From the IMG/VR virus record IMGVR_UViG_3300032257_000076, positions 1 through 32,867 of that record: a stretch of DNA of 32,867 bases; one strand, 5' to 3'. The DNA comes from a virus (Duplodnaviria; Caudoviricetes). The stretch's first letter is position 1. Each line of letters starts with the position of its first letter. The translations under genes were made by a program, and so were the position numbers. Positions 214-32,642 of the stretch are shown in pieces. Under the pieces are notes generated by a model. The model saw only the letters and a list, made by a program, of their open reading frames with translations, made no database searches and was not told the origin of the DNA.

Positions 214-243
214 TACTACATATAAAAAATAAAGGGTTCAAAA

Positions 244-648: not shown

Positions 649-771
649 ATGCAGTTTAATAAAAAATTACTTTGTAAAATAGGTATTCATAAGTGGAGAT
701 ATAGTGGTGGACGAACTCACCCTTTAACTAATGGTAGATGGTGTTGTGTGAGATGCTGGGGATATTCATGA
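649..771 (+). CDS. small Cys/His (putative Zn-binding) phage protein, DUF1660-like (40 aa)
   Basis: MQFNKKLLCKIGIHKW...CCVRCWGYS: C-x2-G-x-H-K-W and C-x-R-C pattern; ATGA overlap with the next gene. Confidence 0.6.
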   Translation: MQFNKKLLCKIGIHKWRYSGGRTHPLTNGRWCCVRCWGYS

Positions 772-902
772 AACCAACTAACACAAACATAGCCCACTTC
801 TACGGCTTAACTCGCCAAACCATAGCCACATATAAGAAAGAAAAGCCTAGAACGTATGAAGCGTTAAAAAAGTATTTTATGGAGTGTACTAATGCCGTAT
901 GA
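768..902 (+). CDS. small helix-turn-helix (Cro-like) DNA-binding protein (44 aa)
   Basis: MKPTNTNIAHFYGLTRQTIATYKKEK...: IA-x-x-x-G-x-T-R-Q-T-I HTH pattern. Confidence 0.65.
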   Translation: MKPTNTNIAHFYGLTRQTIATYKKEKPRTYEALKKYFMECTNAV

Positions 903-942: not shown

Positions 943-1071
943 ATAAGTTTTTAAAAAGTAGCAGTTTTCCGTCTAGGCTTCTGCTACGTTTTAAGGGCTT
1001 ATCTTCGGATGAGTAAAAAGCCTAGACAACTTCTTTACTTCCCTTAAAATTATCAGTCTGAAAGAAATGTT
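943..1071 (+). ncRNA. structured leader RNA copy 1 (C4/CI-like antisense/kissing-loop architecture)
   Basis: 22-position stem 943-964/981-1002 with one mismatch; second hairpin 1011-1040; loop GTCTAGG 971-977 complementary to loop CCTAGAC 1021-1027; same architecture at 30585-30719. Confidence 0.7.
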
Positions 1072-1734
1072 ATGAAACACATAGCAATCATAAAGCAAAA
1101 CATAGAAGGTGTTGAGATTAACTCAATTAGTGCTAAGGATTTACACAAGTATCTAGAAGTAAAAAAAGATTTTAGCGATTGGATTAAAACGCAGCTAGAA
1201 CTAGATAAGAGAACACAGTCTACTTTCAAAGAAGATGTTGACTATCTTAAAAACCCCTTAAAAGTTGGTAAGCAAATAGACTATATACTAACACTAGAGA
1301 CCGCAAAACATATAGCTATGATGTCAAAAGTAAAAAAAGGGCAAGAGGTAAGGCAATATTTTATAGATGTTGAAAAGGAATACAACAAAGAGTTAATTAA
1401 ATCCTTATCAGATCAACAACATAAGACACTAGCCTTATTCAATACACAAGAAGTTATGGGTGAAGTTATCACAGATCATGATAAGCGATTAAAGAACCTA
1501 GAAAACAATTCACGCCTGGAAGCATGGCAAGAGAAAAACCTGCAAGATGCGAAGAACCGTAAAGTGTATGAACTTGCAAACGGTAATGATAAATTAGCAA
1601 GCAAGCTCCACAGAAACGTATGGCGAGAGTTTAAGAAAGTGTTTCATCTTCCAAGATACAATGAAATCAGAGTAGGCAGATACGAAGACGGGCTTATGTG
1701 GCTTAATAGCGTGCAACTGCATGAGGTTGTTTAG
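1072..1734 (+). CDS. phage antirepressor, AntA/AntB N-terminal domain plus ORF6C-like C-terminal domain
   Basis: SAKDLHKYLEVKKDFSDWIK...DYILTLETAKHIAMM...GQEVRQYFIDVEK (AntA pattern); C-terminal VWREFKKVF...YNEI..GRYEDGLMWL (ORF6C-like). Confidence 0.85.
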   Translation: MKHIAIIKQNIEGVEINSISAKDLHKYLEVKKDFSDWIKTQLELDKRTQSTFKEDVDYLKNPLKVGKQIDYILTLETAKHIAMMSKVKKGQEVRQYFIDVEKEYNKELIKSLSDQQHKTLALFNTQEVMGEVITDHDKRLKNLENNSRLEAWQEKNLQDAKNRKVYELANGNDKLASKLHRNVWREFKKVFHLPRYNEIRVGRYEDGLMWLNSVQLHEVV

Positions 1735-3754: not shown

Positions 3755-3770
3755 AAAAAAGAGGTTCAAA

Positions 3771-29075: not shown

Positions 29076-29103
29076 TACTTATCTTAATAAAAAAGGGTTC
29101 ACA

Positions 29104-29217
29104 ATGGAAACATTAATTATAAGCATAACTTCAATAGCAATACTAATTGCATACACGCTTGACTACGGATGGGCGATAAACAAACTGTTTGATTTAATAG
29201 GTGGATGCAATGAGTAA
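29104..29217 (+). CDS. small membrane peptide (37 aa)
   Basis: ATG after AAAAAAGGGTTCACA; METLIISITSIAILIAY. Confidence 0.6.
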   Translation: METLIISITSIAILIAYTLDYGWAINKLFDLIGGCNE

Positions 29218-30147: not shown

Positions 30148-30175
30148 ATCAGCACTTCCATAAAAAGGGTTCAAC

Positions 30176-30292
30176 ATGCAATACACACCATTAGTAAAAG
30201 ATATAATCAAGTTCCTAATCATAGAGATGGGCAACCCTTCAGCAGCAGACTTTGCTAAGTTCCTAAAAGATTGCAAAGGTGTAGTTTTATGA
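30176..30292 (+). CDS. small hypothetical protein (38 aa)
   Basis: ATG after AAAAAGGGTTCAAC; MQYTPLVKDIIKFL...; ATGA overlap with the next gene. Confidence 0.6.
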   Translation: MQYTPLVKDIIKFLIIEMGNPSAADFAKFLKDCKGVVL

Positions 30293-30526: not shown

Positions 30527-30578
30527 ATTATAACTAAGTAATAAATAATTTGCAATAGCTTTTTAAATAAGCTATAAT
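30527..30578. promoter_or_regulatory. divergent promoter pair sharing one palindromic -35 (TTGCAA 30550-30555)
   Basis: TATAAT on + at 30573-30578 and on - at 30527-30532, each exactly 17 nt from TTGCAA. Confidence 0.8.
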
Positions 30579-30584
30579 ATGTGC

Positions 30585-30719
30585 AAGCTTTTAAAGAAGT
30601 AAGGGCAAAGGGTCAGTCGAATACCTGCTAACCCCTTGCTTCTTTAAGGGCTTAATGAGTTGGCGAAATTCGACACTTCTTCTAACTCCCCTTAAATAAT
30701 AACGTCGGAAAGAAAGCAA
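30585..30719 (+). ncRNA. structured leader RNA copy 2 (C4/CI-like architecture)
   Basis: Uninterrupted 21-bp stem 30585-30605/30633-30653; hairpin 30657-30688; GTCGAAT 30616-30622 complementary to ATTCGAC 30668-30674; GTCGGA near the RBS. Confidence 0.7.
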
Positions 30720-31163
30720 ATGAATAATGCTTTTAGATTTTACGGAAAACCAGTACCACATGTTTTAGAAAAAGAAGCCTTATTAATACAAGGCCTATAT
30801 AATCTCAATGATCTTCAGTTAGCAGGGCTAATGAAAATACATGACTTCTTTAAGCGTGTAACATTATTTGACTGTTCCCCTTACAACCTTGAATTAGTAG
30901 TTTATAGATATGGGTCGGATAGTGGAAAACAAGAAGAGATAAGCAGGAATAAACTTCCGTGGAATACACTGTCTTTTTTTGATGATGCTTATGATAAATG
31001 TAGTGATGGAGCAAAACATTTCAGTGATGATATAGGACATAAGTTCTTCAATAGATTTGCAATCAAAGTTCTAAACGACATAAATAATTTAACTGATTAT
31101 GTAAATGTTGGAGTTATAGAACAGAAAGAAGACGCTCCATCTCGTGTCGTTGAGTTCAAATAA
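30720..31163 (+). CDS. hypothetical protein upstream of the replication initiator
   Basis: ORF track; GLYNLNDL weakly recalls the KilA-N start motif (low confidence). Confidence 0.7.
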   Translation: MNNAFRFYGKPVPHVLEKEALLIQGLYNLNDLQLAGLMKIHDFFKRVTLFDCSPYNLELVVYRYGSDSGKQEEISRNKLPWNTLSFFDDAYDKCSDGAKHFSDDIGHKFFNRFAIKVLNDINNLTDYVNVGVIEQKEDAPSRVVEFK

Positions 31164-31957
31164 TGACTGAGCATTTTACATTTTTTGAAAGCTACTACAA
31201 GTCAGTAAAAGACTTGCCAGATGATATAAAAGCTGAATTTTATGATGTATTATTCAATTATGCGTTATATGATAATGATATTTCAGAGGAAGCAAACCCC
31301 GTAGTTAGGGCTATTTTCTTAATGGCTAAACCAAACTTAGACAAAAGCAAAGCAAGAAGAGATGCAGGCAAGCAAGGTGGAAGCAAACCACAACCAAAAA
31401 GTAAGCAAACGGAAGCAAACGTAAGCAAACCTAAGCAAGTGCCAAGCGATAAGGATAAGGAAGAGGATAAGGATAAGGATAAGGAAGAGGATAAAGAGAA
31501 TGATAAAGAAAAAGAGAATAAAGCTTTTTCGTTTAATCTCTCAAAAGCTATTCAATATAATTCTCTTTCTAAAAGTTATCAAGATAAACTATTGGGATAC
31601 GCTGTTGTAAAAGATGGAGCTTATCAGTTACAAAAGTTCTTAGACCATAACTTAGCCAAGGGCAGCAAATATAAAGACTGGTCAAGAGCATATAACACAT
31701 GGGTAAGCAATTCAATCGAATACAGTAAAGGAGATTATAACCCTAATAACTACATAAAGGTTTTAACTAATCACCCTGATTACGATAACGTATATGTACC
31801 TTACGGGCAAAATAAAGCGTTCAGTGAGGAATATGATTACATTTGTGATTTTGACGTTAAAGAGACACCTAAGATTGTTTCAGGGAACGATCCTGCTTAT
31901 AATCATGACAGAGACATAACAAAAGTAATTAACTCAAAATTAGATGGATGGAAATAA
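31163..31957 (+). CDS. phage replication initiator (DUF6291-like N-terminus)
   Basis: FTFFESYY...LFNYAL...IFLMAKPNLDKSKARRDAGKQGG, DKDK low-complexity linker, C-terminal YKDWSRAYNTW helix; internal iterons. Confidence 0.8.
   Translation: MTEHFTFFESYYKSVKDLPDDIKAEFYDVLFNYALYDNDISEEANPVVRAIFLMAKPNLDKSKARRDAGKQGGSKPQPKSKQTEANVSKPKQVPSDKDKEEDKDKDKEEDKENDKEKENKAFSFNLSKAIQYNSLSKSYQDKLLGYAVVKDGAYQLQKFLDHNLAKGSKYKDWSRAYNTWVSNSIEYSKGDYNPNNYIKVLTNHPDYDNVYVPYGQNKAFSEEYDYICDFDVKETPKIVSGNDPAYNHDRDITKVINSKLDGWK
31370..31520 (+). repeat. putative replication origin: 10-bp iterons plus a purine-rich tract
   Basis: GTAAGCAAAC GGAAGCAAAC GTAAGCAAAC CTAAGCAAGT (31401-31440), another GGAAGCAAAC at 31379-31388, then GATAAG/GAAGAG repeats. 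Confidence 0.7.
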
Positions 31958-31958
31958 A

Positions 31959-32642
31959 ATGAGCAAAACACTAAAAGAAATGGAAGCAGAACTGCAAGAG
32001 CCGATTGAGCCTTTTGATATGGATGACAAGATGGGGATGATACACAACATAGACTGCTTAGAGTTTATGAAACAAGTTCCAGATAATTACTTTGATCTAG
32101 TTTTAACAGACCCGCCTTATGGGATTAATGAAAGTGGTGGAAAATTCAGAGGTAGGAAAGGCGGAGGGCATAGAGTTTTGGAGAAAAAGAATTGGGATAA
32201 AGAAACACCGAGTAAAGAGATATTTGATGAAATATTTAGAATAAGTAAGAATCAAATTATATGGGGTGCTAATTATTTCACAGACAAAGGCATTCCCCCT
32301 TCTATGGGGTGGATATACTGGGATAAAAGGATGGGAGGAGACTTTAGCGATGGGGAACTAGCATTCACATCATTTAATAAGGCATTAAAATCATATTCAA
32401 AATGTAATAAAATGCGTGGCAAAAAGCATCCCACACAAAAGGCACTAGAAATAATAGAGTTCTCTTTAGAATATGCAAAAGTCGAAAAACACCACAAAGT
32501 ATTCGACCCATTTATGGGAAGTGGAACGACCGCTATCGCAGCTGAGTCGTTAGGATTGCAATGGTGTGGATGCGAACTAGAAGCCGATTATGTAGCAATA
32601 GCAAACAAACGCTTAGAAGCGGTACAGGGGAGCTTATTTTAA
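31959..32642 (+). CDS. DNA methyltransferase, beta-class N6-adenine/N4-cytosine (probable start ATG 31959)
   Basis: DLVLTDPPY (motif IV) precedes HPTQK and FDPFMGSGTT (motif I). Confidence 0.92.
   Translation: MSKTLKEMEAELQEPIEPFDMDDKMGMIHNIDCLEFMKQVPDNYFDLVLTDPPYGINESGGKFRGRKGGGHRVLEKKNWDKETPSKEIFDEIFRISKNQIIWGANYFTDKGIPPSMGWIYWDKRMGGDFSDGELAFTSFNKALKSYSKCNKMRGKKHPTQKALEIIEFSLEYAKVEKHHKVFDPFMGSGTTAIAAESLGLQWCGCELEADYVAIANKRLEAVQGSLF

What the first reader, a model, noticed from the sequence alone, without database searches (positions are those of the whole stretch)
30585..30719. Second copy of the same leader architecture with a different, compensated specificity code
Seen: the scaffold matches copy 1 (AAGYTTTTAAA...TTTAAGGGCTTA...GAGT...ACTTCTT...CCCTTAAA...GTCnGAAAGAAA..ATG), but the complementary elements are all changed together: GTCGAAT / ATTCGAC / GTCGGA versus GTCTAGG / CCTAGAC / GTCTG. 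The upper stems also differ in sequence yet remain paired (21 bp uninterrupted). This within-genome co-variation is good evidence for functional RNA structure. Inference: two orthogonal RNA switches, this one gating gene 30720 and the translationally coupled replication initiator, possibly as replication timing or copy control.
Basis: partly seen in the sequence, partly recalled or inferred. Interest (0 to 1): 0.82.

Follow-up and report, generated by a model that had tools for sequence, protein, structure and literature searches.

The report
Address-coded RNA switch in phage leaders
This phage carries two copies of a 135-base RNA leader in which one short 'address' sequence can pair with either an upstream loop or a site next to the gene's start; the address differs between copies and across 36 related leaders while the pairing is kept, so each copy likely works as its own self-limiting off-switch for early phage genes, much like the c4 antisense system of phage P1 but matching no catalogued RNA family.

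Summary
Window 30585-30722 and 944-1074 are two copies of one leader: a long 5' hairpin with target T1 in its loop, a central domain carrying the complement A, an AU-rich spacer, and a second target T2 just before GAAAG and the start codon. I found 34 more leaders in related phage contigs. T1 and A stay complementary in every one (mean 9.25 bases cognate, 4.9 cross), with about 20 codes, and T2 follows A. All 8 two-copy records use different codes. Rfam has no match, C4 included. The layout is that of P1 c4 / P4 CI (target-antisense-target), at a compact size. Carriers are probably Campylobacterota phages, and none of 20 records shows an integrase. Best reading: T1:A pairing leaves translation on; accumulated central-domain RNA takes T1, so A pairs with T2 and shuts translation. 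Structure and codes are shown; processing, action in trans and direction of control are inferred. New variant of a known kind.

The parts
30550..30578 (+). sigma-70-type promoter (TTGCAA, 17 nt, TATAAT); predicted start at about 30585, the first base of the hairpin
   Evidence: 10 of 12; 5 sites found against 5.4 in shuffles, so weak alone; family-wide a -10 box lies 5-8 nt before the hairpin in 13 of 31 against 2.3 in shuffles
30556..30574 (.). inverted repeat in the promoter spacer (6-nt arms, 7-nt gap), possible operator
   Evidence: sequence; not tested
30585..30653 (+). P1: 5' hairpin, 21-bp stem, internal loop and small apical stem
30616..30622 (+). T1 code element a1 (GTCGAAT) in the apical loop
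30627..30632 (+). T1 second code element b1 (GCTAAC) in the 3' side of the internal loop
30644..30695 (+). central antisense-carrying domain, closed by P3 (30644-50 with 30689-95), which excludes the base of P1; candidate processed small RNA of about 55 nt
30657..30688 (+). P2 hairpin; its 5' strand holds b' (30659-64) and its loop holds a' (ATTCGAC, 30668-74)
30696..30703 (+). AU-rich spacer (family: 6-15 nt, median 8, 91% A+T)
30704..30712 (+). T2 (GTCGGA) and the conserved GAAAG, 7 nt before the start codon
30720..31163 (+). 147-aa orphan protein, first gated gene; 5 relatives, no family and no clear fold match
31163..31957 (+). DUF6291 protein, likely replication initiator, start overlapping the previous stop
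   Evidence: PF19808, E 1.9e-10; relatives behind other leaders hit replication-initiation PHROGs
31944..32642 (+). N6/N4 DNA methyltransferase in the same operon
944..1074 (+). copy 1 of the leader (subtype A): P1 944-1001, T1 971-980, P3 991-97 with 1041-47, UUCG hairpin 1001-10, A 1018-27, T2 1056-60, GAAAG 1060-64; -10 box TATACT 931-36
1072..1734 (+). AntA/AntB + ORF6C antirepressor-type protein gated by copy 1

Best explanation
This is one of two copies of a compact phage 5' leader in which one antisense segment (A) is complementary to both an upstream loop (T1) and a site beside the start codon (T2), and it likely works as a self-limiting translational off-switch of the c4/CI type. Shown: the hairpin, the covarying T1:A, A:T2, P2 and P3 pairings, the variable codes, and a different code in each copy of a genome. 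Inferred steps: (1) on fresh transcripts P1 folds first, A pairs with T1 in cis (loop contact, then b1 opens P2), T2 and the weak initiation site stay free, and the gene is on; (2) cleavage in the long P1 stem (RNase III is my guess) or decay of the 5' end frees the central domain, which closes through P3 into a stable RNA of about 55-60 nt; (3) as that RNA builds up it occupies T1 of new transcripts, their own A pairs with T2 across the AU-rich spacer, and initiation is blocked. Different codes would let the replication operon and the antirepressor/recombination operon be limited independently, and would restrict the effect to co-infecting phages with the same code.
For: T1:A cognate Watson-Crick run mean 9.25 (6-13) against 4.86 cross in 32 leaders; 0 of 10,000 permutations reach it; no foreign A beats the cognate one in 31 of 32. 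A:T2 cognate 5.5 against 4.2 cross, 0 of 10,000; in the 12-row subtype-B alignment that helix is 96% paired with two-sided changes at 2 of 4 pairs. Second code element: 6.8 against 4.4 in 14 leaders, 0 of 10,000. Four leaders found afterwards fit with new codes (T1:A 8, 6, 10, 8). The strand shared by P1 and P3 pairs with 66 G-U of 224 positions in P1 but 3 of 224 in P3, and P3 changes on both sides in L342, L356, L388, L423: the central domain is under selection to fold alone. All 8 two-copy records have different codes. Leaders carry GAAAG (29 of 31) and mostly lack the AGG/GGA/GAG core (present in 6 of 31) that 37 of 39 other window genes have: a weak initiation site. The same layout is described for P4 (CI pairs with seqA upstream and seqC downstream; PMC4825925).
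Against: No expression data and no experiment. Nested folding gives no gain for central domain plus P1 in trans (0.0 kcal/mol; the program cannot model loop-loop contacts). P3 is not the lowest-energy fold of the intact leader (mean -32.4 with P3 barred against -28.8 with the 5' end barred; P3 forms in only 16 of 32 of the latter), so step 2 needs a processing event I cannot show. A:T2 is short (mean -5.7 kcal/mol). In copy 2 the a1:a' pairing alone (-6.8) is no stronger than A:T2 (-7.5), so the on-state depends on b1. L344 has T1, A and P3 but no T2, and L343 and L071b lack GAAAG. No integrase in 20 carrier records, and no resolvase or S24 repressor in the 17 tested, so the lysogenic-immunity role of c4/CI does not carry over. 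23 of the 32 leaders were found by patterns that demanded parts of P3 and/or GAAAG, which inflates their conservation (not the code covariation). Related sequences count many times in the permutation tests.
Confidence: 0.5

Rival explanations
1. Purely cis switch: the leader moves by itself between T1:A (on) and A:T2 (off), as a folding timer or under a protein or ribosome cue. Codes diverge only so that copies do not mis-pair.
For: All three elements sit within 135 nt; for copy 1 the T1:A fold is the minimum-energy fold of intermediate-length transcripts but not of the full leader; the trans cofold shows no gain.
Against: A cis switch needs neither about 20 codes that change faster than the scaffold (close scaffolds c1, L003, L086 have different codes) nor a separately selected closing helix P3.
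Confidence: 0.25
2. IncI/IncB-like control: the T1:A pseudoknot frees the initiation site and a counter-transcript from the opposite strand blocks T1.
For: The same logic controls ColIb-P9 rep, with a weak initiation signal (PMC4705826, passages). An antisense -10-like hexamer lies in the spacer of 15 of 31 leaders, copy 2 included.
Against: 15 of 31 is close to the sense-strand count (13) and to shuffled spacers (10.8; 213 of 3,000 reach it). The hairpin is less stable on the antisense strand in 31 of 32. No conserved leader peptide (12 of 32 against 7.6 in shuffles, 68 of 1,000).
Confidence: 0.1
3. IsrK-like activation: the default is off (A:T2), and the P1 hairpin released as a short RNA binds A in trans and switches translation on, giving positive feedback.
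For: IsrK, a structural homologue of seqA, activates its own long mRNA in trans (PMC4825925 section 21). P1 starts at the predicted transcription start in 13 of 31 leaders.
Against: No U-tract follows P1 in any of 32 leaders, so no intrinsic terminator makes a short form; T1:A in cis is predicted stronger than A:T2 on average (-13.6 against -5.7).
Confidence: 0.1
4. The pairings serve RNA processing, stability or a protein-binding scaffold, not control of translation.
For: The long P1 stem suits a double-strand nuclease; L344 keeps the fold without T2.
Against: T2 covaries with A and sits at a fixed distance from the start codon.
Confidence: 0.05

Closest known systems
c4 antisense RNA of phages P1/P7 and CI RNA of satellite P4 (Rfam RF01695 C4)
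   Same: Antisense segment encoded in the leader between an upstream and a downstream target (PMC4825925); bipartite upstream target (a1, b1 naming seen in the PMC2864571 supplement); variable codes; control of antirepressor and replication genes; subtype A has an outer helix, a tetraloop hairpin and a second hairpin, as the C4 alignment does.
   Different: No match to RF01695. Central domain about 57 nt against about 85; copy 2 lacks the small hairpin; the closing helix shares a strand with the upstream hairpin; no icd/kil-type small gene before the target gene; likely Campylobacterota hosts; no integrase or classical repressor found in carriers. RNase P processing (PMC5499578) untested.
IsrK / seqA hairpin of Gifsy-1 and P4-like elements
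   Same: A 5' hairpin complementary to a downstream domain of its own transcript, at the head of a phage operon.
   Different: No Rfam match; no intrinsic terminator after the hairpin (0 of 32).
Rep leader of IncI-alpha ColIb-P9 and IncB/IncL/M plasmids
   Same: A loop pairs with a downstream segment that otherwise occludes a weak initiation site; gates a replication initiator.
   Different: No conserved leader peptide, no significant counter-transcript promoter; a separately folding central domain; many non-replication target genes.

Membership tests
C4 / CI antisense RNA (RF01695) | match to the family covariance model | tested here: not met
   window and both copies, E up to 1 or 10; no candidate; the control found none over cut-off in 14 genomes either; 20 homologue loci
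C4 / CI antisense RNA (RF01695) | antisense segment with complementary targets upstream and downstream in the same transcript | tested here: met
C4 / CI antisense RNA (RF01695) | two-part recognition of the upstream target | tested here: met
   (14 subtype-B-like leaders); in subtype A the pairing is one longer run
C4 / CI antisense RNA (RF01695) | two-part recognition of the downstream target (recalled for c4) | tested here: inconclusive
   only a 4-7 base a-type pairing covaries; the GAAAG tail could pair with the junction CTT but both are nearly invariant
C4 / CI antisense RNA (RF01695) | about 85-nt three-way fold with long outer stem and tetraloop hairpin | tested here: not met
   copy 2 central domain is 55 nt with no small hairpin; copy 1 is 59 nt with a UUCG hairpin
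C4 / CI antisense RNA (RF01695) | processed small RNA (RNase P) acting in trans | not testable with these tools
   no RNA data for this stretch
C4 / CI antisense RNA (RF01695) | small icd/kil-type gene between downstream target and antirepressor/replication genes | tested here: not met
   AntA genes start directly after T2 in 8 leaders; the 147-aa gene behind copy 2 has no family
C4 / CI antisense RNA (RF01695) | role in lysogenic immunity of a temperate element | tested here: inconclusive
   no integrase in 0 of 17 and 0 of 3 records, no resolvase or S24 repressor in 17; most records are fragments and a plasmid-like state is not excluded
IsrK / seqA | intrinsic terminator after the 5' hairpin giving a short isoform | tested here: not met
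   0 of 32
IncI/IncB pseudoknot rep leader | loop-to-downstream pairing competing with occlusion of the initiation site | tested here: met
   predicted from covariation
IncI/IncB pseudoknot rep leader | counter-transcribed antisense RNA | tested here: inconclusive
IncI/IncB pseudoknot rep leader | conserved leader peptide ending at the initiation site | tested here: not met
   start, frame and stop are not conserved

The most novel reading that the evidence does not exclude
An independently evolved, undescribed family of 135-nt self-counting RNA switches: each leader makes its own repressor RNA, carries a private address, and is moved as a module in front of dosage-sensitive early genes (antirepressors, homing-type nucleases, initiators) in phages that have no integrase or protein repressor, giving operon-by-operon timing and code-specific sensing of co-infecting kin by RNA alone.
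Probability: 0.25. Interest if true: 0.8.

Novelty: new variant of a known kind. Interest (0 to 1): 0.58.

Why it matters
It extends target-antisense-target RNA control beyond the enterobacterial P1/P4 type to a phage group that likely infects Campylobacterota and shows no sign of integrating, which asks what such 'immunity' RNAs do outside lysogeny. The element is small, has three-way covariation and comes with about 20 natural codes, so the mechanism and the orthogonality can be tested directly with reporters, and the set could serve as orthogonal translation regulators.

Tried and rejected
Rfam: nothing near a gathering score for either copy or 20 homologue loci. blastn of the leaders against named phages and plasmids gave only chance hits. 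The one GTDB pattern scan gave 1 hit that lacks the architecture, so cellular genomes are barely tested. Nitratiruptor phages NrS-2 and NrS-4 have integrases and no leader. Among relatives by SSB, 3 of 15 records matched, 1 of 8 complete ones, so the leader is patchy. RNA runs: none was listed. Conserved antisense promoter, leader peptide and terminator: not supported. The 147-aa protein: no family, no Atlas hit of 0.9 or more, model pLDDT 70, no Foldseek match at E 0.001, best Z 3.9. MAFFT shifts the variable code columns, so column-wise counts understate T1:A (84% paired); I used alignment-free tests. Rows dropped before counting: duplicates, L194 (partial copy of L119), L311, and weak model hits without the architecture (L117, L074, L016:454-542, L083 plus strand). 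L390 is borderline (missed by the second model). Literature: 9 searches answered listed no paper that I could tie to this motif; subscription papers and the supplements of PMC5737381 (c4-2 text and motif table) and PMC2864571 Additional file 1 could not be read and may bear on novelty.

Full report
Setting. The window is a 32,867-base phage record whose recognised genes all lie on the plus strand: recombination and replication genes, terminase, head, tail and lysis genes. The host is likely Campylobacterota. The named homologues among the best 120 SSB hits are from Sulfurimonas and Campylobacterales, and the best named-phage hits for the SSB and the antirepressor are Nitratiruptor phages. This is inference from protein likeness.

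Observation. The scaffold occurs twice, at 944-1074 and 30585-30722. The motifs and the 21-bp stem are as described. Copy 2 begins 6 bases after a TATAAT box with a -35 hexamer 17 bases upstream. It ends at the start of a 147-aa orphan gene whose stop overlaps the start of a DUF6291 protein. Copy 1 precedes an AntA/ORF6C protein. The two copies differ at 3 of 7 code positions and belong to two subtypes.

Family. A covariance model added 9, making 32 with the window's two. Four more were found later in the three complete relatives picked by terminase (3 of 23 viral records matched, 3 of 3 complete) and served as a held-out check. Among SSB relatives only 3 of 15 matched.

Anatomy. Each leader has P1 (18-30 pairs) with target T1 in its loop; a central domain of about 57 nt; an AU-rich spacer; and T2 followed by GAAAG 5-9 bases before the start codon. 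T1 and A are complementary over 6-13 bases (mean 9.25) against 4.86 for cross pairs, and 0 of 10,000 permutations reach this. There are 22 distinct six-base code starts, a few being shifted readings of one core. T2 follows A (5.5 against 4.2; 0 of 10,000), with two-sided changes in a 12-row alignment and poor pairing when slid. In the copy-2 subtype a second element, b1, pairs with the 5' strand of P2 and covaries too. The strand at the base of P1 can instead pair with the 3' arm to close the central domain (P3). It pairs through many G-U in P1 and almost only Watson-Crick in P3, and P3 changes on both sides in four leaders found by the model, not by the pattern. The sense strand is the folding strand (31 of 32). 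Caveats: 23 of 32 leaders were selected on P3 and/or GAAAG motifs, and related rows are not independent; close scaffolds with different codes argue that the codes changed several times.

Context. All 8 records with two leaders use different codes (7, G043). Of 31 leaders with a gene behind them, 8 precede AntA proteins, 5 nucleases, 2 AAA proteins and 2 initiators directly; an initiator-type gene is first or second in 9 (L147's second gene was judged by its identity of start and length to L119's). A -10 box lies 5-8 bases before P1 in 13 of 31 (2.3 expected); the rest seem internal to longer transcripts. No tyrosine integrase was found in 17 + 3 carrier records, 5 of them at least 90% complete; no resolvase or S24 repressor in the 17. 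A Pfam scan of 93 chosen non-structural ORFs of the three complete relatives showed no integrase, partition or repressor family, apart from a weak resolvase score inside a DnaB helicase.

Mechanism. A can pair with T1 or with T2. T1:A is predicted stronger on average (-13.6 against -5.7 kcal/mol), though in copy 2 only when b1 is counted. I therefore read T1:A as the on-state of new transcripts and A:T2, beside a weak initiation site, as the off-state. Something must take T1 away. The best candidate is the leader's own central domain acting in trans, because it is selected to fold alone and private codes matter most for a diffusible partner. RNase III makes small RNAs from intramolecular duplexes in Campylobacter (PMC8687705, abstract), which makes cleavage in P1 plausible but is not evidence for this RNA. 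Against: P3 is not the lowest-energy fold of the intact leader, nested co-folding gives no trans gain, and there are no RNA data. Confidence 0.5; cis-only 0.25; counter-transcript 0.1; IsrK-like activation 0.1; processing only 0.05.

Comparison. It works like c4/CI: P4 CI is processed from the leader and pairs with seqA upstream and seqC downstream (PMC4825925 section 21; PMC3632133 passages); c4 represses Ant synthesis in trans (PMC8546580 and PMC8201110 passages); small immI differences underlie P1/P7 heteroimmunity (PMC6906374 passages). It is not a member by test: no RF01695 match, a smaller and different fold from the C4 alignment (PMC2864571 supplement file 5, one part), no icd/kil gene. 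Details of the a2/b2 sites are recalled, not read. The ColIb-P9 rep pseudoknot shares the competition logic (PMC4705826 passages; PMC10724649 gave only reference titles), but leader peptide and counter-promoter were not supported. Passages of PMC5737381, PMC11531552 and two preprints did not describe this motif. Earlier notes of this scan report ordinary C4/IsrK cassettes in several copies with different codes, so multiplicity of codes is not new in itself.

Verdict. A real, strongly covarying, uncatalogued RNA leader family; a compact variant of the c4/CI kind, in phages with no sign of integration. Interest 0.58.

Noticed in passing
window 30527-30578: Copy-2 promoter overlaps a divergent promoter-like site on the minus strand and holds an inverted repeat in its spacer; possible operator for a protein regulator.
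   Followed up: no
window 768-902: 44-aa ORF just before copy 1 that looks by eye like a small helix-turn-helix protein; no family hit.
   Followed up: partly
window 231-243, 29093-29104, 30165-30176, 3758-3770: A recurring motif (AAAGGGTTCA or a one-base variant) just before the start codons of several small early ORFs.
   Followed up: no
window 31448-31501: 12-nt tandem repeats inside the DUF6291 gene, coding an acidic/basic linker; could double as origin iterons.
   Followed up: no
L344 1501-1606 (G003): Leader variant with T1, A and closing helix but no T2, at the copy-1 position before the resolvase and HNH genes, with no antirepressor gene.
   Followed up: partly
L077 530-566: Sub-threshold match to the abiF motif (32.4 bits, cut-off 37) immediately upstream of a leader.
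   Followed up: no
L343 1501-1633: Lacks GAAAG and the junction CTT together; the replacements could pair, a single hint that the junction contacts the tail of T2.
   Followed up: partly
G000, G001, G008, G033, G040, G043: AntA-type 'antirepressors' or these leaders occur in phages with no detectable integrase or repressor; lifestyle unexplained.
   Followed up: partly
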